From the NCBI GenBank assembly GCA_002788675.1, contig PFRS01000001.1:106204-170203 (forward strand): a stretch of 64,000 bases of DNA. The letters run 5' to 3'. Of this stretch, positions 42,688 through 57,333 are shown one piece after another (position 1 is the stretch's first letter; each line of letters starts with the position of its first letter). The notes under the pieces are model-generated. The model did no database searches and was not told where the DNA came from. It saw only the letters and a list, made by a program, of their open reading frames with translations. Origin of the DNA: Candidatus Pacebacteria bacterium CG_4_9_14_0_2_um_filter_40_15 (GTDB lineage: Bacteria; Patescibacteriota; Microgenomatia; UBA1400; PJMF01). Both the position numbers and the translations under genes were made by a program.

Positions 42688-42716
42688 GTTCGAACATCCT
42701 TCACTAATCACTGCAA
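42682..42716 (+). repeat. Island direct repeat, copy D
   Basis: AAAATAGGTTCGAACATCCTTCACTAATCACTGCAA. The stop TAG lies inside it. Confidence 0.65.
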
Positions 42717-42744
42717 AATCCTATAGTATAATTACTATATTTAC

Positions 42745-43386
42745 TTGATTTCTAGTACTACAGTAATAAGTATGAAAAAGAAAAACAAAATATCCTTATT
42801 AGTTCTACTAATTATTTCTTTGGTATCGATATCAACATATTTATTTTTTAATAGAGATAATACTAAGATAATAAACACAACAGTATCAAATTCAATTTAT
42901 AAAGAACATGATACTAGTTTTTCAATTCAATACCCAAAAATATGGACATATGTTTCATATTATTATGATACTCACATTAACTCAGGAAAAACTAAACGCA
43001 TTGCATTTAGACCCATAGATCTTGAATTAATTGATGAAGAGTATGGAACTATTTTGGTTAGTGAATTTACTAATGTAGAATAAAAAGATCTTTCAACATT
43101 TATAAGTAACTATTTTTGTTATGAACCAGGGAACTGTTTAGATATTGATAATTTCATTCCTCGATCAGTATCTAATTTACCTGCAGTATCAATTGAGAAT
43201 TTTGAAGGTCCACTTCCATCAGGAGACGTCGTGTTTATGGATGGAAATTCATTTTATATATTCTCAATAATATATGAAGGCAGTTATGACAAAGAAACTG
43301 GTGAATATGTGGGTAAATCAGAAGATGACATTGCTAATAAATTAGTATTCGAGGAAATGTTGTCTTCATTCATTAGAACAAAATAG
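42745..43386 (+). pseudogene. Secreted/membrane-anchored hypothetical gene interrupted by an in-frame TAA at 43081-43083
   Basis: The reading frame continues without a plausible restart for another 100 codons, ending at a TAG that is embedded in repeat copy E. The first part has an N-terminal transmembrane segment. Confidence 0.45.
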
Positions 43387-43414
43387 GTTCTAACTTCGTT
43401 CACTAGTCCCTGCA
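43381..43414 (+). repeat. Island direct repeat, copy E
   Basis: AAATAGGTTCTAACTTCGTTCACTAGTCCCTGCA. Confidence 0.7.
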
Positions 43415-43473
43415 TTTCCGTGATATATTTACTTAGAAATAAAATAAGTTGTTAATTATTACAGGAAGAAACT

Positions 43474-43791
43474 ATGAAACCCGAGGGAAATCCAATTAGT
43501 TCAGAGCAAGAGTATGTAAGTCAGAATTATCCAACTCTTAATTCTGCTGAATATGTTGTTGGATTTGAAGATGTACTTCCGATTTATTCAGCTCAAAAAT
43601 TTGGCGAAAAAATTGAAGTTAGTGGGCAAGGTATGAGTGGAGGTACATTCTATTTAAGTGATCACATGTTACCAGATCAATCCATTCCTGACGATTTTGT
43701 GGAAAATTTTCGTCAATATAAAGTAATTCAGCGTGTAGTAAAAGTGCAAGGAATTATGCGCTTTCATAAATATCGAATTGAAAAGGAATAG
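43474..43791 (+). CDS. Hypothetical protein (island cargo)
   Basis: A 105 aa ORF preceded by a GGAAG-type ribosome binding site. Confidence 0.45.
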   Translation: MKPEGNPISSEQEYVSQNYPTLNSAEYVVGFEDVLPIYSAQKFGEKIEVSGQGMSGGTFYLSDHMLPDQSIPDDFVENFRQYKVIQRVVKVQGIMRFHKYRIEKE

Positions 43792-43820
43792 GTTCAAATA
43801 TCTTTAAATTGTCCTATAAC
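43786..43820 (+). repeat. Island direct repeat, copy F (degenerate)
   Basis: GGAATAGGTTCAAATATCTTTAAATTGTCC, with the stop TAG inside. Confidence 0.4.
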
Positions 43821-43926
43821 TATTGATTTTTTACAAATTTCTCTATATAATACAATTGCCTTACTAATTAATAGCTCAATGAAGCATTGAATATATTAAT
43901 TAAATGTATAAGGCTGAGGCAGAGAA

Positions 43927-44007
43927 ATGAAAAAGCAAAGTCCAATCTTTTGGTGTTTTGTATTCATATTTTTCTTGAGTCTATGTATGCTTTTTTTGCC
44001 TGCATAG
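43927..44007 (+). CDS. Small hydrophobic peptide (26 aa)
   Basis: MKKQSPIFWCFVFIFFLSLCMLFLPA, followed by a hairpin at 44017-44044. Confidence 0.3.
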   Translation: MKKQSPIFWCFVFIFFLSLCMLFLPA

Positions 44008-44053
44008 ACTTATTTAGGGGCTAGAGATAGTACAATCTAGCCCCAATATTTTC

Positions 44054-44089
44054 AAAATAAGTTTTAACACGCTTCATTAGTCACTGCAA
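44054..44089 (+). repeat. Island direct repeat, copy G (degenerate)
   Basis: AAAATAAGTTTTAACACGCTTCATTAGTCACTGCAA. Confidence 0.5.
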
Positions 44090-44133
44090 TTACAACAAAA
44101 TGGTATACTCACTCTTAATTAAAGTGGGAAAGT

Positions 44134-44484
44134 ATGATTAAAAAGATTTTACAATTACTATTCTTTGTTCTCTCCCCATTTGCATCGCTCTTGTTTTTAA
44201 CTCCAATCACAATGATTCCTGCTGTTATGGTAGGTAAAATAGTAACTGCCAATGAGTGCGGGAATGCTGTGGGTGAAAGCCTCTGTGGTTTAGGAACAAT
44301 CGCACTGATAGTGTTTGGACTTAATGCCATTGTTGGCGTTATTGTTGTAATTTTATTACATTTAGAAATGAATAAGACATTCAGTTATAATAAGAAAGTT
44401 GCTAGCTCTTTAGTACTATTTACTTACTTTCTTATTGTCGCTGCAGCTTTTCTGTATTTTGTAGCAATTGATATATATACCTAA
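44134..44484 (+). CDS. Small polytopic membrane protein
   Basis: A 116 aa ORF with three hydrophobic helices. Confidence 0.45.
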   Translation: MIKKILQLLFFVLSPFASLLFLTPITMIPAVMVGKIVTANECGNAVGESLCGLGTIALIVFGLNAIVGVIVVILLHLEMNKTFSYNKKVASSLVLFTYFLIVAAAFLYFVAIDIYT

Positions 44485-44758
44485 GAAAACAAAATATAAA
44501 AGTTTGTTTGTGAAAAAGAGTATCTGAATCAAATCATGTTTTTAACGATGCAGTCTATTTAACTAGACTGATTCAGCTTAAGAACGTGTTAGAAGTTATC
44601 GACACAGCAAGAAATGGCATGCAGAATAACCCTTCACTTGAAACTGCTTGTCAAACGATATTGGGTATTGAGGGGGCAAGGCATGCTTTATCAGCTTTAT
44701 ATCCTTTGGGGGTTGGTCCCCTGAGTGATTATTTTGATATTCGTTGAAAACGTACTGT

Positions 44759-44795
44759 AAAAAGACTTTGGATTAATCCAGAGTCTTTTTTTTCT
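44759..44795. terminator. Bidirectional intrinsic terminator
   Basis: A hairpin agactttggatt/aatccagagtct flanked by aaaaa and tttttttt. Confidence 0.6.
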
Positions 44796-44819
44796 TTACT
44801 ACTCTGTAAAGAATTAACT

Positions 44820-45110
44820 TTAAACTAAAGTCGCAAGAATTCTTTTCAATTCAGTAACTTTTTCACTTGGCCCAGATACATTAAATCTGAACCTACTTGA
44901 ACGCGGAAATTCACGTTTGAAAGTTATTGCTAAACCATGTTCTTGAGCATAATCAGTTAACAATTGAATTGTCTCTGATCGCTTATTTCGAAGACCTTTT
45001 CCTTCTATAACAAAATCTTCTGTTCTTTCTGGTTTTATTAAATCTTCAATCCTAGCAGTTTGTTCCTCTAAAAATTGAGCAGCCTTTGCAGATAAATCAC
45101 CTTCTCTCAT
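44820..45110 (-). CDS. Hypothetical protein
   Basis: A 96 aa ORF. Confidence 0.4.
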   Translation of the reverse strand: MREGDLSAKAAQFLEEQTARIEDLIKPERTEDFVIEGKGLRNKRSETIQLLTDYAQEHGLAITFKREFPRSSRFRFNVSGPSEKVTELKRILATLV

Positions 45111-45398
45111 ACATTTTTCCTATCTAATTTATTTTAATTCTAACTCTATACTACCACGTACTGGAAAGTTTGCGGTAAATATAAATTTAAACGCCATACC
45201 GTTCCTCATGCTACAATCGCAAGTGCTCTAAAACTACTTATCTCGAATTTCTCACTCGTCATTCTTTAGACTTTTTTTAATCCCATAATATTTACTTTTT
45301 GTCTATTCCATGCTATAATTTCTCTGTCTCTATTCTGGCAGAATACAAATCATAGCGTTTTTTTTCTGCTAAATACGTGGAGACAAAGGAGAAACACT

Positions 45399-45494
45399 AT
45401 GTCCCGAGGAGTAGTATTACTTATTCTCTTTCTTATTTTCATTGGGCTAGTAGCCGCAACTTGGCTACTCACAAATATGTGGTGGCCCGCCTAA
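45399..45494 (+). CDS. Small hydrophobic peptide (31 aa) with a strong Shine-Dalgarno sequence
   Basis: AAGGAG lies 6 nt upstream of the ATG. The peptide is MSRGVVLLILFLIFIGLVAATWLLTNMWWPA. Confidence 0.4.
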   Translation: MSRGVVLLILFLIFIGLVAATWLLTNMWWPA

Positions 45495-45619
45495 ACAAAA
45501 AAGTCCTGAGCATGACTTCAAATAAAGGCTCACTTTTCCTTCAATACTGTGTACTAAAATGCTAAGCTTTCTTAGCTACACCTCATACTGCTGCAACTCT
45601 CCATGCTACAATCGTATGT

Positions 45620-49871: not shown

Positions 49872-50672
49872 CTACCAGTCGTTTTCAACATCCCAGAATG
49901 AAACCCTGGCCATGACCCCAAGGGAGTACTGACGTTGGTCAGTCATAAAGAATGAGCCAACTGGATCATTTGGCTCACTATCACCCCATAGGGTTGGTTG
50001 CCGCTTGTAAGCTGCAGCAACAAACCGCAAAAAACCAACCGGGTCTGGGGTGCAAACATCAATATGCTCCACTCCACTCCAAGGAGCCGAAGGATCATAT
50101 TGAACTTCCTGGTAATACACCCAGGGAGCAAACGGGACCGGGACGGGGATGTAGATACGTTCATGATCATCTGCTGGACGCACCAACTGATATGAATCAT
50201 GATACATTGCCAATCGCTTGGCTTCCTTTCGCATCGCTTTCTTGCTGTGAAAACGGCGGCCAATATGGTGCAGCTGGATGTCGTTTCCCTTGAAAGCATA
50301 CAGGCCTATTAGGGCCATCATCAGATCAAATTCCTGGGAAAGTTTGGATACTGTAACAATTTCGTTACCAGAACGAACTCCCCCCTGCCAGCCCAATGAC
50401 CTTTTGTAGGTCGCAACTGGCGTTGTGCAAATCCCATATGGATCACCGCGGGAAACAAGTTCCCCATACTTCGCCCAGGCGACTCCCCCTGCCTCAGAGG
50501 CTGGGTCTGGGTAGGATGTTCCCAACCAGGCGCCGAACGCGCCTGATGTCTGGGTATCATAATTTGCGATACCCATTACCGCATAAAACGGTTGCCGTCT
50601 CGCAACGGCAATTTGATCCATTAGTCTTACAGCACCAACAGTCTGTGGTGGTGACATGTTAACATCTATCAT
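49872..50672 (-). CDS. Hypothetical protein encoded by a GC-rich (about 55%) segment, likely horizontally acquired
   Basis: A 266 aa ORF with a GGAGG ribosome binding site. Local GC is about 15 percentage points above the surrounding DNA, and many overlapping six-frame ORFs appear here as a consequence. Confidence 0.55.
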   Translation of the reverse strand: MIDVNMSPPQTVGAVRLMDQIAVARRQPFYAVMGIANYDTQTSGAFGAWLGTSYPDPASEAGGVAWAKYGELVSRGDPYGICTTPVATYKRSLGWQGGVRSGNEIVTVSKLSQEFDLMMALIGLYAFKGNDIQLHHIGRRFHSKKAMRKEAKRLAMYHDSYQLVRPADDHERIYIPVPVPFAPWVYYQEVQYDPSAPWSGVEHIDVCTPDPVGFLRFVAAAYKRQPTLWGDSEPNDPVGSFFMTDQRQYSLGVMARVSFWDVENDW

Positions 50673-51070: not shown

Positions 51071-51955
51071 CTAACTCAGTTCTTTGACCCATTCTGCTAC
51101 CTTTGAACCATATTTTTCGTGATCTAGCACGAATTTCAGATGGGCCTTAAAGTAGTTTTCTGGATCACCCGTGGTCATCCACTCGCCTTTTGTTTTTCCA
51201 ACTAATACTCGTTTTGTTTTTGCAACTTGAGTAATTGAGTCAACGGTCCAAAGTTCATTATCTTTGCCAGTATTACCAGGAACTAAATATTGAAGCACAT
51301 CTGGTGTTAAAAGATAACGACCATAGGAACCCAATCGTGAAGGCTCGGTGCCTTGGTCTGGCTTTTCAACAATATAATCAAGATCTGTGTCAGATCCATC
51401 TTTAAACTTTATGATTCCATATTTATCAACCACATCTGCACTCACTTCCTGAGACATGATAATTCCTGAAACATCAGGATTGGCTTCATACAGATCAACC
51501 ATAGTCTTTGCATCTCCCTGAGCGCCAAAAACAACGTCATCACTATAGATAACCAAGAATGCTTCTTCACCATCAACAAACCGTTGAGCTGATGCAACTG
51601 GAGAGCCATTACCATAAGGCAAACTCTCATCTTGAGTAATCACAACAATCTTTGGAAAGTTGAGTACATGCTGTACAGGTTCGTAACGATCTTCTTTACC
51701 CTGAGAAGCAAGCTGTTTGCGTATACGGTTTACATTATTATTAAAGTAATCCTCGTATACTGGTTTACCTTCAGGTGTGGCAACAATAATAATTTCCTCA
51801 ATTCCTGCCTCAGCGCATTCCTCGACCATAAACTGCATAATTGGTTTGTTACCTAGTGGCAGCATTCCTTTTGGAACCGTTTTTGTTACAGGCAAGTAAC
51901 GACTTGCGAAACCAGCATCTGTAATAATTGCTTTTCTTACTCGTTTTTCGTTCAT
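51071..51955 (-). CDS. galU: UTP-glucose-1-phosphate uridylyltransferase (copy 2)
   Basis: KAIITDAGFASRYLPVTKTVPKGMLPLGNKPIMQFMVEEC. Confidence 0.75.
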   Translation of the reverse strand: MNEKRVRKAIITDAGFASRYLPVTKTVPKGMLPLGNKPIMQFMVEECAEAGIEEIIIVATPEGKPVYEDYFNNNVNRIRKQLASQGKEDRYEPVQHVLNFPKIVVITQDESLPYGNGSPVASAQRFVDGEEAFLVIYSDDVVFGAQGDAKTMVDLYEANPDVSGIIMSQEVSADVVDKYGIIKFKDGSDTDLDYIVEKPDQGTEPSRLGSYGRYLLTPDVLQYLVPGNTGKDNELWTVDSITQVAKTKRVLVGKTKGEWMTTGDPENYFKAHLKFVLDHEKYGSKVAEWVKELS

Positions 51956-52215: not shown

Positions 52216-53196
52216 TTGTTATTTACTATGACAAAAAAAACCACTTCTCTCTCTCCTACAAAAAAATTAATTCAAGCTTTTAGCGATTTTCTCATCGGTT
52301 TTAGCATATTCCTTATAATTGCAGGACTCATAGGAACGGCTTTTGTGATTCAAGACTTGCAAAATAATACCTCTCAGGATGTCCGCTCAGACGCGAGTAC
52401 TGAAACTACCGAACTCATACCGGACCCAGACATAACTTGTGACACCATGCCTGTGTGTACCGATCCGATTGCTGCTACCGGTGTTCTTGATTCTTGTATT
52501 GCCGAAGAAATCTGTGAAATTCCTCCTGGATGTTACTACGAGGACATCAACTGTGTAACTTCCCCTTGTCCTATGGCGCCAGGAGTAGTGATTTGCCCTG
52601 AAAAAATTGATGATATTTTCTTTTCAGATCCTACAGGACTAGACTCCCCCACCTACTCTCTGGATGAGGAAGGAAAAGCAATTGTCCCAGAATCAGAACT
52701 AAAAGCTGGACAAAATTACTATTTCTCAGTACCCGTTCAACTACAAAACATACTTAAAGATCCAATGACCGGATCCACTCCATTCTTCTTTTTAGGACTT
52801 ACCAGTAATGTACGCCAATATACAGCCGATCTGATCTCATACCCAATGATTGTGAATCATCGCGATGGATTCAACTCAACACTAAAAGGTTCTTTCGTTG
52901 CTGAAGCCCAGAATACATTCGAGTACACTATCCGCACAATCGATCCTCAAGGAAGTGTTATTATTGCTGAGACAAACTACGAAAATAACACTCACGTCCA
53001 CACCTTTGAAGCTCAGAAGTGCAGTAATAATCCAGATCTAAATGCCGACGACAAGGTTGACCTGCGAGACTTTTCAATACTTAGTAGAGAATTTTTAAGT
53101 CGGCGCTCTACTTTTACTGCCGATATCAACTGTGACAATTCTGTAGACATGCGCGATTACTCAATCATGGCATCACACTTTACTGTGGCTCAATAA
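52216..53196 (+). CDS. Secreted/membrane-anchored protein with a C-terminal type-I dockerin-like domain
   Basis: An N-terminal transmembrane segment or signal peptide, and a C-terminal duplicated Ca-binding loop: DLNADDKVDLRDFSILSREFL and DINCDNSVDMRDYSIMASHF. Confidence 0.6.
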   Translation: MLFTMTKKTTSLSPTKKLIQAFSDFLIGFSIFLIIAGLIGTAFVIQDLQNNTSQDVRSDASTETTELIPDPDITCDTMPVCTDPIAATGVLDSCIAEEICEIPPGCYYEDINCVTSPCPMAPGVVICPEKIDDIFFSDPTGLDSPTYSLDEEGKAIVPESELKAGQNYYFSVPVQLQNILKDPMTGSTPFFFLGLTSNVRQYTADLISYPMIVNHRDGFNSTLKGSFVAEAQNTFEYTIRTIDPQGSVIIAETNYENNTHVHTFEAQKCSNNPDLNADDKVDLRDFSILSREFLSRRSTFTADINCDNSVDMRDYSIMASHFTVAQ

Positions 53197-53208
53197 GGAA
53201 TATAAAAT

Positions 53209-55014
53209 ATGAAAAAAAGCACTCGATCATTCCTACAAAAACCATCAACAACTGGCGTCCTCATTGGAGTACTCGCCGTTGCATTTAGTGTGGTTGGACT
53301 CTTACTTGTCCAAACTCCTCTCGAAAAACCACAAGACGTTCGCCGCCAAGCCTCTATAGATAATGGCGAAGTTACTGTTTCACATACTGTCACACCAGAT
53401 AACAGTGTTGTTGGCACAGAATCAACAATACTTTTTGCTGTAAATACTGCTGGAATCCCAACTGATGGAATTCAAGTGCTCTTTAATGTGGTCACAGATA
53501 CCTTTGACACCATGACAGCCGACATCGAGACTGGCACAGGTTTACAAAGTGCAGGTACTCAAGTTGAGCGAACTGCAGATGGCTTCCTCGTGCAAGCACT
53601 CGCACTTCCAGCTCAGATTGGTCAACCTTTTATAACAACAGATGCTGTTTCACCAGTCTTTTTACGAGTGAAGTTCACTCCAACTAAAGCAGGAACAGTG
53701 GCCTTTAACTTTGACCGTGAGGAATCAATTTCAATTCTGCATGACAGTAATCCTCTCGAGGATAAACTGAATCATATTGCTGCCTTCCAGATTGCAGTTG
53801 CTACACAACCTGGCACCAGCCCAAGCCCGTCACCATCGACAAGCCCATCTCCAACCCCAGCAGTAACTCCTAGCCCAAGTCCAACCCCCGCTGTTGGAGG
53901 CATCAATGTAGTGAGCTGTAATGCTGTCTGCTCGAGCAATGCTGAGTGTGGCATTAACCAACGCTGTTACAGTGTTGATGGCACAAATCGTTGCCGCTTA
54001 GCTGTAAATCCAACCAATGACCGCTGTATCACTGCTGAAACTGGACCTAACTATAGTTGTAATCATGGTTGTGCAGATACTCACGAGTGTAGTACCGGTC
54101 TCACCTGTTGGTACAACAAGTGTCGAGAACCACTTAATGTTGAAAGTACCAGTTGTGCTTCTCTCACAACAACTCAGACAGCAAGTCTAGTTGCTAGTTG
54201 TAATGTTACCTGTAGTGCAAATGCAGACTGTGACATCAACCTTCGCTGTTACCAAGGTGCCTGTCGTCTCGCTACAAATCCAAGTAGTTCTACTTGCAGT
54301 GCTGCTACAGCACCTACTATTTCGAAAACCTATACGGCACCAAAGGGTGGAGCCGCTGCCAACGATACAACTAAGAAAGCTGCAAGTGCTCAACTTCCAT
54401 CTGATGCAAAAGATGCAAGCACATCAGCTGGAGCTGTCGGAGCCACCGCTTCTGCTAAACCTTCAGCTGCAACCACCATTCAGGATCAAATGAAGGAAAA
54501 CACAGAAAAAATTGCTCAGGAAGAAGCAATTGTTGCAAACGAAAGTGCCCTGGATGTACTCCTAAAAATGCTGAAAACTCCAGACTCAGCTCTGCCACTC
54601 ATAATTATTGGGGCAGGCATTGGACTCCTCATCCTCGCTCTCATCATTATTTTCATCCGCAGAATGATGGCAGGATCTGACAAACCAACTTCACAATCAG
54701 GTGGTTCTACAAGCACCCCAACTGTACAACCTAAACCAGAGCCTGTGGTTTCTCGAACAGATCTAGGTACACCACTTACTACTGCTCGCAGCATGACCAC
54801 GCCAACTGCAAGTATGCCAACACAGCATACACTGCAACAGCAGTCGGCCAGATCTCAAGCAGCCACACCATTAGCCCAAGCTGCTAGTCCTCATGCTATG
54901 CCACCAGCTACAACACAACCGGCCGCCAGTGGTGATTCGAGCATGCTCCAACGAATGAAAAACAAAGGAATAGCGCTACCAAATAGTTCAACTGAGCCAC
55001 CAAAACAATCGTAA
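53209..55014 (+). CDS. Type-I membrane surface protein with a Pro/Ser/Thr linker, three Cys-rich repeats and a long low-complexity C-terminal tail
   Basis: A signal peptide is followed by a roughly 190 aa beta-rich domain and a TSPSPSPSTSPSPTPAVTPSPSPTP linker. Three repeats of about 40 aa each, with 6-8 Cys (CNAVCSSNAECGINQRCY...), come next. They are followed by a transmembrane helix (LIIIGAGIGLLILALIIIF) and a roughly 130 aa S/T/P/A/Q-rich tail. Confidence 0.6.
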   Translation: MKKSTRSFLQKPSTTGVLIGVLAVAFSVVGLLLVQTPLEKPQDVRRQASIDNGEVTVSHTVTPDNSVVGTESTILFAVNTAGIPTDGIQVLFNVVTDTFDTMTADIETGTGLQSAGTQVERTADGFLVQALALPAQIGQPFITTDAVSPVFLRVKFTPTKAGTVAFNFDREESISILHDSNPLEDKLNHIAAFQIAVATQPGTSPSPSPSTSPSPTPAVTPSPSPTPAVGGINVVSCNAVCSSNAECGINQRCYSVDGTNRCRLAVNPTNDRCITAETGPNYSCNHGCADTHECSTGLTCWYNKCREPLNVESTSCASLTTTQTASLVASCNVTCSANADCDINLRCYQGACRLATNPSSSTCSAATAPTISKTYTAPKGGAAANDTTKKAASAQLPSDAKDASTSAGAVGATASAKPSAATTIQDQMKENTEKIAQEEAIVANESALDVLLKMLKTPDSALPLIIIGAGIGLLILALIIIFIRRMMAGSDKPTSQSGGSTSTPTVQPKPEPVVSRTDLGTPLTTARSMTTPTASMPTQHTLQQQSARSQAATPLAQAASPHAMPPATTQPAASGDSSMLQRMKNKGIALPNSSTEPPKQS

Positions 55015-55094
55015 TCTACCTAATAAAAGGGTAAAAAAAGACCGAGAAGTTAGGGTATTTCAAAATTCACGGTTATTTGTTACAATACTTGCCT

Positions 55095-55274
55095 ATGTTC
55101 AAACCTGCACAGTACTTTACCGAAGTTGCGCGCGAAATTAAAAAAGTCACGTGGCCTTCTAGAGAACAGACACAAGAAAAGACAGTACTTGTTCTCGCAG
55201 TAAGTATAATTATTGGTTTGTACATTGGAGTACTCGACTTTGTCTTTTCAAAATTACTCGCAGTATTGGTATAA
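55095..55274 (+). CDS. secE: Preprotein translocase subunit SecE
   Basis: KKVTWPSREQ followed by a single transmembrane helix, and positioned before nusG. Confidence 0.75.
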   Translation: MFKPAQYFTEVAREIKKVTWPSREQTQEKTVLVLAVSIIIGLYIGVLDFVFSKLLAVLV

Positions 55275-55332
55275 AACGACAGATAAAATGGTATAACGAC
55301 TGCCCGCCGCACGTTGGCACGAAAAGAAAAAT

Positions 55333-55944
55333 ATGACAGATAACACACCAACACCACCAGAAATTCAAGAAGTTAAGGTCCAAACCCCAAACTTGATTAC
55401 TGTTTCTGAAGCCGAAAACCGCAAGTCTCGCTGGTACGTGGTCCATGCCTACTCTGGTCATGAGAACAAAGTTGCCGAAGCACTCAAGCAACGTGCCGAA
55501 ACGCTTAACCTCACCGACAAAATTTTAGGAATCCTTATCCCTACCCAAGAAAAAATTCAAATCAAGCGCGGAACCCGCAAAACCGTCAGTGAAAAGATTT
55601 TCCCTGGATACATGCTCGTAAACATGGAACTTACCGACGATTCATGGCTCGCAGTTCGCACAACACAAGGTGTGACCGGCTTCGTAGGCGTTGGTAACAA
55701 GCCAACCGCTCTTCCAAAACATGAAGTTCAAGCAATTATGAAGTACATGACTCAGTCTGCTCCTTCATACAAAGCTGACTACGTCGAAGGTGAAGCAGTT
55801 CGCATCGTGGAAGGTCCTTTCAATGACTTCCTCGGTACTGTTAACTCAATTAATGAAGAAAAAGGCCAAGTTGAAGTCTTGGTTAACATTTTTGGTCGCG
55901 AAACCCCAGTGTTCCTCGACTTCTTACAAGTAAAGAAAGTATAA
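55333..55944 (+). CDS. nusG: Transcription termination/antitermination factor NusG
   Basis: An NGN domain (RWYVVHAYSGHENKV) and a C-terminal KOW motif (GEAVRIVEGPFNDFLGTV). Confidence 0.9.
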   Translation: MTDNTPTPPEIQEVKVQTPNLITVSEAENRKSRWYVVHAYSGHENKVAEALKQRAETLNLTDKILGILIPTQEKIQIKRGTRKTVSEKIFPGYMLVNMELTDDSWLAVRTTQGVTGFVGVGNKPTALPKHEVQAIMKYMTQSAPSYKADYVEGEAVRIVEGPFNDFLGTVNSINEEKGQVEVLVNIFGRETPVFLDFLQVKKV

Positions 55945-55975
55945 GCACCATACACAAAACAGAAAACAAACACAT

Positions 55976-56401
55976 ATGGCAAAAAAAATAATTAACGTCC
56001 TCAAACTCAACCTCCCAGCAGGTACAGCAACTCCAGCTCCTCCAGTCGGACCTATTCTTGGTCAAGCTGGTATCAACATGATGGACTTCCTTAAGCAATA
56101 TAATGCTGCTACTCAAGATAAAAAAGGTCAAACCATTCCTGCTGAAATCACTGTCTACGCAGACCGTTCATTTACCTATGAACTCAAACTGCCTCCAGTT
56201 TCAGCCATGATCAAACAAGTACTTAAACTTAAATCTGGAAGTAAGACTCCTGGTCAAGGTAGTGTTGGTACCCTCACAAAAGAGCAAGTCCGCGCGATCG
56301 CAACCGAGAAGATGCCAGACCTCAACACTAACGATATTGAAGCAGCAATGCGCAGTGTCGAAGGTGCAGCTCGAAGTATGGGAGTTGCAGTTGCTGAATA
56401 A
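55976..56401 (+). CDS. rplK: 50S ribosomal protein L11
   Basis: KLNLPAGTATPAPPVGPILGQAGINMMDF, which is the L11 N-terminal signature. Confidence 0.9.
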   Translation: MAKKIINVLKLNLPAGTATPAPPVGPILGQAGINMMDFLKQYNAATQDKKGQTIPAEITVYADRSFTYELKLPPVSAMIKQVLKLKSGSKTPGQGSVGTLTKEQVRAIATEKMPDLNTNDIEAAMRSVEGAARSMGVAVAE

Positions 56402-56439
56402 TTTCAGTAAATGTATTAGAAGAAGTTAAAAACCAATGT

Positions 56440-56613
56440 GAAACATTCTCTTTTTGCTCAGCCTGATGCTAGTAGATGAGAAAAGTAGTTGCGTTGAGCG
56501 ATATATACAACAATATATGTTCTGCTCAGCCTGACGATAGTAGATGAGAAGAACATATATTGTTGTATATTATTAGTTACTTATGCCCCGCTTGACGGGA
56601 TTAAGGAGATATA
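56440..56613 (+). promoter_or_regulatory. Structured rplK-rplA spacer: a duplicated 28 nt motif and a 20 bp perfect inverted repeat, a candidate r-protein autoregulatory or attenuator leader
   Basis: tgctcagcctgatgctagtagatgagaa appears at 56455-56482 and again at 56523-56550. The second copy forms the loop of the stem atatacaacaatatatgttc/gaacatatattgttgtatat (56503-56522 with 56551-56570). Upstream is a small hairpin with a T-run at 56434-56457. Downstream is a cccg-cttga-cggg hairpin and the SD sequence AAGGAG. Confidence 0.45.
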
Positions 56614-57333
56614 ATGGGATCAAAGAAAAACGTCGACATGTCTGTCAACAATGATGTTGTCAAAATCGTCGAAAATACCCAACAAGTAGTAGAAGAAGGC
56701 AAGACGGCAGAAGCTGATGTTGTTGCAGCTCCTAAGAAAGAAGCTCGTGTTCGTAGCAAAAAATATGTTGCTGTACGTTCACAAGTAGATAAAACAAAAA
56801 TCTACGACGCTTTTTCAGCTATTGAGCTCGTCAAAAAGCTCTCTTACTCAAAATTTGATGGAACTATTACCGTTGACGTAGTAGTCAAAGATACCGGAAC
56901 ACTCGGAAAAATTACTCTTCCCTATTCAACTGGTAAATCAGTAAAAGTAGCTATCGTTGATGATGCAGTCATTGCTGAAATCGCCGCTGGAAACATCGAT
57001 TTTGACTTCCTGGTTACTACCCCACAGTTCATGCCAAAGTTAGCTAAACACGCTCGTGTTTTGGGACCTCGCGGCCTTATGCCAAACCCAAAGAACGGCA
57101 CAGTCACTGCTAACCCAGAACAAAAGAAATCTGACCTCGAAAAAGGTGAACTTAACATCAAAACCGAGAAAAAACGCCCAGTTATTCACGTGAGCTTAGG
57201 AAAAGTCTCACAAGATACCAAAGAACTCGTTGAGAACTTTAAAGCACTTATGACTTTCCTTACCGGAAAAGTGGTGAAGTCTGCAGTATCTGCAACTATG
57301 AGTCCAGGAGTTAAAGTTGATTTTAAGGTCTAA
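56614..57333 (+). CDS. rplA: 50S ribosomal protein L1
   Basis: L1-family pattern (KKYVAVRSQVDK, VLGPRGLMPNPKNGTVT). Confidence 0.85.
   Translation: MGSKKNVDMSVNNDVVKIVENTQQVVEEGKTAEADVVAAPKKEARVRSKKYVAVRSQVDKTKIYDAFSAIELVKKLSYSKFDGTITVDVVVKDTGTLGKITLPYSTGKSVKVAIVDDAVIAEIAAGNIDFDFLVTTPQFMPKLAKHARVLGPRGLMPNPKNGTVTANPEQKKSDLEKGELNIKTEKKRPVIHVSLGKVSQDTKELVENFKALMTFLTGKVVKSAVSATMSPGVKVDFKV

What the first reader, a model, noticed from the sequence alone, without database searches (positions are those of the whole stretch)
52216..55014. Adjacent dockerin-bearing protein and Cys-repeat surface protein: a candidate cell-surface docking pair
The first protein ends in a clear duplicated dockerin Ca-loop segment (DxNxDxxVDxxD, twice). 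The next gene, 12 nt downstream, encodes a type-I membrane protein with an N-terminal beta-rich domain that may act as a cohesin-like receptor. That protein also has a PT linker, three 6-8-Cys modules, a transmembrane anchor and a 130 aa S/T/P/Q-rich cytoplasmic tail. A dockerin protein co-transcribed with a candidate scaffold in a small-genome, likely host-dependent, bacterium points to a surface attachment complex.
Basis: partly seen in the sequence, partly recalled or inferred. Interest (0 to 1): 0.6.

Follow-up and report, generated by a model that had tools for sequence, protein, structure and literature searches.

The report
Membrane-anchored cohesin–dockerin pair in Patescibacteria
Two adjacent genes of a candidate-phyla-radiation bacterium encode a protein ending in a calcium-loop "plug" (dockerin) and a membrane protein whose outer tip has the matching "socket" fold (cohesin), and the socket gene sits at the same spot next to core housekeeping genes in many related genomes, so this looks like a built-in system for hanging proteins on the cell surface.

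Summary

ORF2 belongs to a family of at least 147 clusters at 50% identity. The shared architecture is TM/leader, cohesin fold, PS/PT linker, three 6-Cys modules, TM, and a cytoplasmic tail with a conserved C-terminal motif. In 21 of 29 species genomes the family gene lies directly upstream of secE-nusG-rplK. A dockerin gene with variable cargo sits immediately upstream in 13 of 29.

Three further lines link the two modules. Single-chain cohesin-fold+dockerin proteins exist. Dockerin and cohesin-fold domains co-diverge beyond NusG (partial Mantel r = 0.46, p = 0.0002). Both partners share an N-terminal leader.

Physical binding, Ca coordination and any role in host attachment remain untested. 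Verdict: a non-cellulosomal, TM-anchored mono-cohesin scaffold with dockerin cargo, i.e. a new variant of a known kind. Interest is moderate.

The parts
52216..53196 (+). ORF1: membrane-tethered dockerin protein. It is 326 aa from the TTG at 52216, but the likely true start is the ATG at 52228, giving 322 aa.
   Evidence: Nine full-length homologues at 46-99% identity, all with the same architecture.
52288..52350 (+). ORF1 N-terminal hydrophobic helix (residues 25-45), either a signal anchor or a long signal peptide.
   Evidence: Sequence. AF2 models a helix at 14-49.
52375..52398 (+). ORF1 juxtamembrane leader motif Q54-D-V-R-S-D-A-S61. ORF2 carries the same motif.
   Evidence: These are the only two real-ORF occurrences in the 64-kb window.
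52438..52596 (+). ORF1 Cys-rich segment (C75-C127). The Cys positions are invariant in the family.
   Evidence: One search lists C75, C81, C94, C100, C106, C113, C118 and C127 as invariant. The fold is not resolved.
52597..53010 (+). ORF1 middle beta-sandwich, the 'cargo' (residues 128-265). It looks like an Ig/E-set or CARDB-like, non-catalytic domain.
53035..53175 (+). ORF1 C-terminal dockerin (residues 274-320). Ca loop 1 is at 53035-53070 and Ca loop 2 is at 53122-53157.
   Evidence: PF00404 at 31.8 bits against a 22.9-bit cutoff. The loops are invariant in the family. The family profile hits PDB dockerins.
53195..53208 (+). Junction between the genes: the AAGGA ribosome-binding site overlaps ORF1's stop codon, and the gap is 12 nt.
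   Evidence: No terminator-like site at the junction.
53209..55014 (+). ORF2: a 601-aa membrane protein with a cohesin-fold domain and three Cys modules. It is the conserved core of the system.
53254..53313 (+). ORF2 N-terminal hydrophobic helix (residues 16-35).
53332..53355 (+). ORF2 leader motif Q42-D-V-R-R-Q-A-S49. A48 is the only invariant column in the 135-sequence family alignment.
53356..53808 (+). ORF2 cohesin-fold domain (residues 50-200).
53809..53907 (+). PS/PT-rich linker (residues 201-233).
   Evidence: Sequence. Low pLDDT.
53911..54303 (+). Three 6-Cys modules (residues 235-275, 282-318 and 329-365), with spacing C-x3-C-x5-C-x5-C-x4/8-C-x10-C.
   Evidence: pLDDT 90 or above. All 18 Cys are at least 90% conserved. 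Weak similarity to the Dumpy DPY module: PF21164 in 7 of 80 members and PDB 1oig at E = 0.055.
54304..54591 (+). Low-complexity S/T/A-rich stalk, plus a short helix just before the membrane (residues 366-461).
54592..54669 (+). C-terminal transmembrane helix (residues 462-487). G470 is conserved in 116 of 122 sequences.
54670..55011 (+). Cytoplasmic tail (residues 488-601), disordered and rich in S, T, P, A and Q. The segment TPLTTARSMTTPTASMPTQ (54769-54834) is invariant in close relatives.
54937..54981 (+). Conserved C-terminal cytoplasmic motif S-S-M-x-x-R-x-K-x-K-G-I-x-x-P (residues 577-591).
   Evidence: M579 in 87 of 109 sequences, R582 in 78 of 111, G587 in 94 of 114. A short helix at 580-585 is the only ordered element of the tail. 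A motif-like pattern is present in 61 of 113 two-TM representatives.
55077..56401 (+). The downstream genes secE, nusG and rplK (L11). This flank is conserved.
   Evidence: The family gene lies within 200 nt upstream of secE in 21 of 29 species genomes.
51071..51955 (-). The divergently oriented galU-type nucleotidyltransferase gene. This flank is also conserved.

Best explanation
ORF2 is a membrane-anchored scaffold with a single cohesin, and ORF1 is one of its dockerin-bearing cargo proteins.

ORF2 is inserted by Sec. It shows a cohesin-fold domain on the outside of the cell. That domain is followed by a PS/PT linker, three small disulfide-bonded 6-Cys modules and a low-complexity stalk. A C-terminal TM helix holds it in the membrane, and a disordered cytoplasmic tail ends in a conserved basic motif.

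ORF1 is co-transcribed from the gene 12 nt upstream. It carries a Cys-rich segment and a non-catalytic Ig/CARDB-like beta-sandwich. It ends in a type-I-like dockerin with two Ca2+ loops.

I infer that the dockerin plugs, in a Ca2+-dependent way, into the 8-3-6-5 sheet of ORF2's cohesin-fold domain. ORF1's ectodomain would then be held on the scaffold at the cell surface.

Across related Patescibacteria the scaffold is the constant part, fixed upstream of secE-nusG-rplKA. The upstream dockerin gene is a variable, exchangeable cargo. Examples are the CARDB-like domain here, a pectate-lyase-like domain, and a second cohesin fold that would act as an adaptor. This makes it a small modular surface-display system.

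Shown: the dockerin identity, the cohesin fold, the architecture, the synteny, the fusions and the co-divergence. Inferred: the binding itself, its Ca dependence, the topology and processing, and the biological role.
For: 1. Dockerin. PF00404 scores 31.8 bits against a 22.9-bit cutoff. All 10 homologues hit it. Both loops are invariant, and the two repeats are near-symmetrical: VDLRDFSIL and VDMRDYSIM. The profile hits PDB dockerins.

3. Operon. The gap is 12 nt with an AAGGA ribosome-binding site and no terminator-like site at the junction.

4. Synteny. The order galU | dockerin gene | family gene | secE-nusG-rplK holds in all close relatives. It also holds in distant members L009, L010 and L011. 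Among 29 species genomes, 21 have the family gene within 200 nt of secE, and 13 have a dockerin gene directly upstream. Several of those upstream proteins pass the Pfam Dockerin_1 cutoff.

5. Fusions. P0089 and P0137 combine TM, leader, cohesin fold, linker and dockerin in one chain. P0089's dockerin shares ORF1's two Cys. The upstream proteins in L015 and L026 do the same.

6. Co-divergence. The partial Mantel correlation r(dockerin, cohesin fold | NusG) is 0.458, p = 0.0002, over 17 pairs.

7. Conservation. It is highest on strands beta3, beta6 and beta8 (2.1-2.4 bits) against 1.4-1.8 bits for the strands of the other sheet. This assumes canonical cohesin strand order.
Against: - No sequence method calls the domain a cohesin. 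PF00963 is absent from ORF2 and from 80 members. The family profile finds no cohesin among PDB sequences. Identity to cohesins is 9-16%.
- No complex could be modelled.
- The ORF1 model is poor and says nothing about Ca geometry.
- About 6-8 of the assessable species genomes have no dockerin gene next to the scaffold. The pairing is therefore frequent but not obligatory.
- If neither N-terminal helix is cleaved, both proteins sit in the same membrane with the cohesin only about 15 residues from the bilayer. That is an unusual docking geometry.
- The Mantel result can be inflated by the cluster of close relatives, and by non-linear saturation relative to NusG.
Confidence: 0.62

Rival explanations
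1. ORF2 is a general anchor whose cohesin fold binds dockerins encoded elsewhere, or dockerins of other cells. ORF1's dockerin in turn targets a different receptor. On this view the adjacency reflects shared envelope function and regulation, not a specific one-to-one pair.
For: Six to eight species genomes have the scaffold but no adjacent dockerin gene, for example L013, L017, L018, L028, L036 and L037, where galU abuts it. Some loci have two or three tandem dockerin genes: L020, L021 and L033. ORF2 is much better conserved than ORF1 (79% against 48% identity to the same Woesebacteria relative). That fits one hub serving many clients.
Against: Where a dockerin gene is present it is almost always the immediately preceding gene. 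The dockerin and cohesin-fold domains co-diverge. Same-chain fusions exist. This rival is compatible with the main model, because ORF1 could be one client among several.
Confidence: 0.2
2. The N-terminal domain only looks like a cohesin. It is a generic beta-sandwich that serves as an adhesin, a glycan-binding module or a CLIPPER/pilin-like module. It binds host or cell-wall material and not a dockerin. The neighbouring dockerin acts on its own, for example as a Ca-binding or glycan-binding module.
Against: There is a clear gap in the hit list. Eighteen cohesins rank above the first non-cohesin, with about 130 of 150 residues aligned at 2.4 A. Synteny, fusions and co-divergence with dockerins are not expected for an unrelated sandwich.
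Confidence: 0.12
3. The pair is a transmembrane signalling or cell-envelope organising module rather than a display system. On this reading, binding on the outside (dockerin or another ligand) is relayed through the single TM helix to the conserved cytoplasmic C-terminal motif. That motif would then recruit a cytoplasmic partner. This would explain co-location with secE-nusG.
For: The C-terminal motif SSMxxRxKxKG is conserved across most of the family, and a motif-like pattern is found in 61 of 113 two-TM representatives. The tail segment TPLTTARSMTTPTASMPTQ is invariant among close relatives. The locus next to secE-nusG-rplKA is fixed.
Against: No known signalling domain was found. The tail is otherwise disordered. 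Gene order next to ribosomal operons may be only a lineage relic. This reading does not exclude the docking model.
Confidence: 0.06

Closest known systems
Non-cellulosomal cohesin-dockerin pairs. Examples are the Clostridium perfringens glycoside-hydrolase/toxin complexes (cohesins 2vo8, 2jh2, 2w1n) and the Archaeoglobus fulgidus cohesin 2xdh. The survey is Peer et al. 2009, FEMS Microbiol Lett 291:1, cited from the reference list of PMC10066038.
   Different: Here the cohesin is too divergent for PF00963. It sits at the N-terminus of a TM-anchored protein that also has 6-Cys modules and a conserved cytoplasmic tail. It occupies a fixed locus upstream of secE-nusG across a bacterial lineage. 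Both partners share an N-terminal TM and leader.
Cellulosomal anchoring scaffoldins with one or a few cohesins: C. thermocellum SdbA, OlpA, OlpB and OlpC (4dh2, 3ul4), and R. flavefaciens ScaE (2zf9).
   Different: Those proteins are anchored by SLH domains or by sortase, not by a TM helix. They have no Cys modules and no cytoplasmic tail. The cargo here is not a carbohydrate-active enzyme. The only enzyme-like cargo seen is a pectate-lyase-like domain in one related genome.
Type I dockerins (Pfam PF00404), e.g. C. thermocellum and C. cellulolyticum enzyme dockerins (1ohz, 2vn5, 4fl4).
   Same: There are two 12-residue EF-hand-like loops with D/N at positions 1, 3, 5, 9 and 12. Each is followed by a helix. 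The duplicated segments are near-symmetrical, as in dual-binding-mode dockerins.
   Different: Two conserved Cys are present: C269 before loop 1 and C306 at position 4 of loop 2. They could form a disulfide clasp, which was not tested. The inter-repeat linker is short.
Drosophila Dumpy DPY module (PF21164, PDB 1oig) and other small disulfide-rich extracellular modules.
   Same: ORF2's Cys modules are short, tandem, disulfide-rich units in an extracellular stalk. The local motif C-x5-C-x(4-5)-C-R is shared. Seven of 80 family members hit PF21164 at E below 0.01, and 1oig scores E = 0.055.
   Different: The hits are weak and below threshold, and cover only about 20 residues. The bacterial module has 6 Cys over about 35 residues. 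Homology is not established.

Membership tests
Dockerin type I (Pfam PF00404) | The protein scores above the Pfam gathering threshold against the family HMM. | tested here: met
   31.8 bits against a 22.9-bit cutoff, E = 1.6e-7, residues 274-320. All 10 homologues hit the model, best E = 1.2e-10.
Dockerin type I (Pfam PF00404) | There are two duplicated 12-residue Ca-binding loops with D/N at positions 1, 3, 5, 9 and 12, each followed by a helix. | tested here: met
   Loop 1 uses D274, N276, D278, D282 and D285. Loop 2 uses D303, N305, D307, D311 and D314. The positions listed are invariant or nearly invariant in the family. AF2 places helices at 283-288 and 313-319, but with low confidence.
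Dockerin type I (Pfam PF00404) | The domain actually coordinates Ca2+ and folds in a Ca-dependent way. | not testable with these tools
   AF2 does not model ions, and the dockerin region has pLDDT about 40.
Cohesin (Pfam PF00963) | The protein matches the family HMM at the sequence level. | tested here: not met
   PF00963 does not hit ORF2 at E up to 1. It does not hit any of 80 family members at E up to 0.01. The family profile finds no cohesin among PDB sequences at E up to 10.
Cohesin (structural superfamily) | The domain has the nine-stranded flattened beta-sandwich (jelly-roll) fold of cohesins. | tested here: met
Cohesin (functional) | The domain binds a dockerin through the 8-3-6-5 sheet. 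| not testable with these tools
The indirect evidence is synteny, fusions, co-divergence and higher conservation of beta3, beta6 and beta8.
Cellulosome | The scaffoldin has multiple cohesins and a CBM, and the dockerins sit on carbohydrate-active enzymes. | tested here: not met
   ORF2 has one cohesin-fold domain and no CBM. ORF1 has no catalytic domain. The 64-kb window holds no other dockerin or cohesin-fold gene.
CARDB (Pfam PF07705), for ORF1's middle domain | The domain matches the family HMM above threshold. | tested here: not met
Dumpy DPY module (Pfam PF21164), for ORF2's Cys modules | The module matches the family HMM above threshold. | tested here: not met
   ORF2 itself gives no hit. 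Seven of 80 members hit only weakly, best E = 7.2e-4. PDB 1oig scores E = 0.055 against the family profile.

The most novel reading that the evidence does not exclude
A whole branch of Patescibacteria (Woesebacteria, Microgenomates and Paceibacterota-type genomes) may carry a housekeeping, modular surface-display system encoded at a fixed core-genome locus upstream of secE-nusG. It would consist of a TM-anchored, sequence-cryptic cohesin scaffold that captures interchangeable dockerin cargo. Its components would be marked by a dedicated N-terminal leader (TM, then Q-x-x-L...Q-D-[VIL]-R-x-x-A-[SA]) that acts as a lineage-specific sorting or processing signal. The scaffold's conserved cytoplasmic C-terminal motif (SSMxxRxKxKG) would couple it to an intracellular partner. 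If so, this would be a main organiser of the cell surface, and possibly of host contact, in these ultra-small bacteria.
Probability: 0.2. Interest if true: 0.75.

Novelty: new variant of a known kind. Interest (0 to 1): 0.55.

Why it matters
Almost nothing is known about how candidate-phyla-radiation bacteria build their surface and contact other cells. Most of their envelope proteins are unannotated.

This work shows that a widespread 'hypothetical' membrane protein family is a cohesin in disguise. The family has at least 147 clusters at 50% identity and appears in 29 species-level genomes in one partial scan. It carries no Pfam or NCBIfam annotation and is often paired with a dockerin gene. 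It is locked next to the secE-nusG-rplKA operon.

This gives a concrete, testable handle:
- A pair of small domains whose binding can be measured in vitro.
- A scaffold that could be used to identify the surface cargo of each lineage.
- Two short conserved motifs, the leader and the cytoplasmic tail, that point to unknown processing and intracellular partners.

It also extends the known range of cohesin-dockerin systems to TM-anchored, non-cellulosomal scaffolds in Patescibacteria. Profile HMMs alone miss these.

Tried and rejected
1. Pfam and NCBIfam on ORF2 gave nothing.

2. phmmer and a family profile against PDB sequences gave only spurious or low-complexity hits and a weak DPY match.

3. 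The k-mer-limited homologue search with ORF2's N-terminal 200 residues found one relative. The exhaustive HMMER search was needed to find the family.

6. The leader-profile search of the 5.8-billion-protein database returned a single 80-aa hit, P0157. The profile is too short for that database, so how general the leader is outside these loci remains open.

7. The literature lead on the essential dockerin protein SEML1_0315 of the Saccharibacterium Southlakia (PMC10633639) was rejected as the same system. That protein is a 927-aa Ig-repeat protein located elsewhere. The gene upstream of secE there is a PAS protein.

8. The AFDB fold library was not available.

9. The genome scan with the 135-sequence alignment failed for lack of a conserved stretch. 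It worked with a 30-sequence alignment, but only through one peptide pattern in Cys module 2. The 29 loci are therefore a lower bound and are biased towards members that keep that motif.

10. A signal-peptidase-I reading of the leader was considered. It seems unlikely, because the h-region is 18-20 residues long and the motif lies 15-16 residues beyond it without a canonical AxA. This was not tested.
Full report
**1. Observation**

ORF1's stop codon (TAA, 53194-53196) and ORF2's ATG (53209) are 12 nt apart. An AAGGA ribosome-binding site lies 9 nt before the ATG. No terminator-like site lies at the junction. Homologues of ORF1 begin at the ATG at 52228, so the protein is probably 322 aa and not 326.

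ORF1 ends in two canonical dockerin loops, D274-L-N-A-D-D-K-V-D-L-R-D285 and D303-I-N-C-D-N-S-V-D-M-R-D314. Pfam Dockerin_1 scores 31.8 bits against a gathering cutoff of 22.9. All ten family members hit the model. The family profile finds solved type I dockerins (4fl4, 2vn5). The dockerin is the best-conserved part of ORF1, and its two repeats are nearly symmetrical.

ORF2 has an N-terminal hydrophobic helix, a beta-rich domain, a PS/PT linker and three Cys modules.

**2. Organism and context**

The closest database relatives are from a Candidatus Woesebacteria MAG, GCA_020429005.1. Related loci in species-representative genomes are labelled Patescibacteria, Woesebacteria, Paceibacterota/Pacebacteria or Microgenomatus.

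Some records carry 'uncultured Pseudomonadales' or 'Limisphaerales' labels. Their NusG and L11 proteins are very similar to those of the window, so I regard those labels as mis-assignments. That is an inference.

The pair lies between a divergent galU-type gene (51071-51955, minus strand) and secE-nusG-rplK-rplA (55077-57333).

**3. What ORF2's N-terminal domain is**

No sequence method recognises it:
- Pfam and NCBIfam give nothing.
- PF00963 is absent from 80 family members.
- A family profile finds no cohesin among PDB sequences.

The exhaustive HMMER search found 147 cluster representatives at E up to 1e-3, 91 of them at E up to 1e-10. In every one the domain sits at residues about 40-210.

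**4. Is the pairing more than an accident of one genome?**

Close relatives of ORF1 (46-99% identity) all show the order galU | dockerin gene | ORF2 homologue | secE-nusG-rplK-rplA. Distant family members, about 30-45% identical in the domain, do too. L011 has a 236-aa Cys-rich dockerin protein upstream. L010 and L009 have dockerin C-termini upstream.

A scan of one genome per GTDB species returned 29 loci. I scored these with local HMMs and a dockerin-loop pattern:
- The family gene lies within 200 nt upstream of secE in 21 loci.
- A dockerin gene is the immediately preceding gene in 13.
- galU abuts the family gene directly, with no dockerin gene, in about 6.
- The remaining loci are contig ends or shorter paralogues.

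The upstream dockerin proteins range from 239 to 607 aa. Several pass Pfam's Dockerin_1 cutoff. One carries a pectate-lyase-like domain (L023). Two carry their own copy of the cohesin-fold domain (L015, L026). Single-chain TM, leader, cohesin fold, linker and dockerin proteins also exist among the representatives (P0089, P0137).

Across 17 gene pairs, dockerin and cohesin-fold distances correlate after controlling for NusG distance (partial Mantel r = 0.458, p = 0.0002). This is modest support. A cluster of close relatives and saturation effects can inflate it.

Conservation within the cohesin fold is highest on strands beta3, beta6 and beta8 (2.1-2.4 bits) against 1.4-1.8 bits for the opposite sheet. 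In canonical cohesins those strands form the dockerin-binding 8-3-6-5 face. I inferred the strand numbering from strand order, not from coordinates.

**5. The rest of the two proteins**

ORF2's Cys modules are confidently modelled small beta-hairpin units, and all 18 Cys are at least 90% conserved. Similarity to the Dumpy DPY module is weak and below threshold.

Of the 147 representatives, 66 have exactly 18 Cys. Eighty-eight have three six-Cys modules, and 113 have both an N-terminal and a distal TM segment.

**6. Two unexpected conserved short motifs**

The first is a shared leader. Both ORF1 and ORF2 carry the same juxtamembrane motif, Q-D-V-R-x-x-A-S, 15-16 residues after their N-terminal hydrophobic helix. 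These are the only two real-ORF occurrences in the window. A48 of this motif is the only invariant column in the 135-sequence family alignment. The motif also appears on other neighbouring gene products: L033's dockerin protein, and small Cys-containing ORFs upstream in L035 and L038-L040. It may be a shared processing or sorting signal, or a membrane-proximal contact. A database-wide search with this short profile failed.

The second is in the cytoplasmic tail, which is otherwise disordered. It ends in the conserved motif S-S-M-x-x-R-x-K-x-K-G-I-x-x-P, which is the only ordered element of the tail. A motif-like pattern is present in 61 of 113 two-TM representatives.

**7. Mechanism**

The most likely model has confidence about 0.6. 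ORF2 is a membrane-anchored mono-cohesin scaffold. ORF1 is a co-expressed cargo whose Ca-dependent dockerin plugs into ORF2's cohesin fold. In the lineage as a whole the scaffold is constant and the cargo is exchangeable.

| Status | Items |
|---|---|
| Shown | Dockerin identity, cohesin fold, architecture, operon-like junction, synteny, fusions, co-divergence |
| Inferred | Binding, Ca dependence, topology (cleaved leader or double anchor), biological role |

The rivals are listed separately with their tests:
- a general hub with other clients;
- a look-alike sandwich with a non-dockerin ligand;
- a transmembrane signalling or organising role through the tail.

**8. Comparison with what is known**

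Non-cellulosomal cohesin-dockerin modules are known from all three domains of life (Peer et al. 2009, cited in PMC10066038). Structurally characterised examples from C. perfringens and Archaeoglobus are the best matches here. Dockerin domains have been noted in Patescibacteria (PMC10633639), but that protein is not this system.

I found no paper in the held library that links Woesebacteria or Microgenomates with cohesin-dockerin pairs. The library is incomplete, so this is not proof of absence.

The system works like a minimal anchoring scaffoldin. It differs in five respects:
- it is anchored by a TM helix;
- its cohesin is cryptic at the sequence level;
- it has a disulfide-module stalk;
- it has a conserved cytoplasmic tail;
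- it sits at a fixed core-genome locus and shares a leader with its partner.

It is not a cellulosome. It has one cohesin, no CBM and no carbohydrate-active cargo in this genome.

**9. Verdict**

Physical binding and host attachment remain unproven. I class this as a new variant of a known kind, with interest 0.55.

Noticed in passing
window 52375-52398 (ORF1) and 53332-53355 (ORF2); also L033:4025-4882, L035:3379-3987, L038:2761-3381, L039:3134-3991, L040:2936-3964: Both proteins share an N-terminal leader: a TM helix, then Q-x-x-L...Q-D-[VIL]-R-x-x-A-[SA] 15-16 residues after the helix. It occurs on both partners and on other small Cys-containing neighbours of the cohesin-fold gene in related genomes. 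It looks like a lineage-specific sorting or processing signal, not a canonical signal-peptidase-I site.
   Followed up: partly
window 54937-54981 (ORF2 residues 577-591) and 54769-54834: The cytoplasmic tail is otherwise disordered, but it ends in the conserved motif SSMxxRxKxKGIxxP. This is conserved across most of the 135-sequence family alignment. A further segment, TPLTTARSMTTPTASMPTQ, is invariant in close relatives. Both suggest an unknown intracellular binding partner.
   Followed up: partly
L015:3896-5320, L026:1097-2125; proteins P0089 and P0137: Some relatives encode proteins that carry both the cohesin-fold domain and a dockerin. These could act as adaptors or polymerise head-to-tail. 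L020, L021 and L033 have two or three tandem dockerin genes upstream of the scaffold.
   Followed up: partly
L023:1796-3463: In one related genome the dockerin gene upstream of the scaffold carries a pectate-lyase-like domain (PF00544, 26.8 bits against a 24-bit cutoff) and a TSP3 repeat. This is the only enzyme-like cargo seen.
   Followed up: no
window 42700-45600: This stretch has low GC (0.32-0.35 against about 0.41 elsewhere). It has no ORF of 120 aa or more on either strand, only small ORFs of 50-116 aa. A 38-nt element (AACAAAATAGGTTCGAACATCCTTCACTAATCACTGCA) recurs three times at about 700-nt spacing (42678, 43377, 44051).
   Followed up: partly
window 49872-50672 (- strand): A 266-aa ORF with no Pfam family lies between the tRNA cluster and galU. 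Genes of 268-275 aa with no Pfam hit sit in the same position in L001, L005 and L007. It was not characterised, and homology between them was not tested.
   Followed up: no
L012, L013, L019, L021, L023, L027, L029-L031, L033 (titles 'uncultured Pseudomonadales'); L024 (title 'Limisphaerales'): The record titles of these MAG contigs conflict with their content. Where present, their NusG, L11 and galU genes are close to those of the Patescibacteria window. The taxonomic labels are probably wrong, or the contigs were mis-binned.
   Followed up: no
window 52990-53160 (ORF1 C269 and C306): Two Cys are invariant in the ORF1-type dockerin, one just before loop 1 and one at position 4 of loop 2. They recur in P0089 and in several distant upstream dockerins (L012, L014, L015, L019). 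They could form a disulfide clasp across the dockerin.
   Followed up: no
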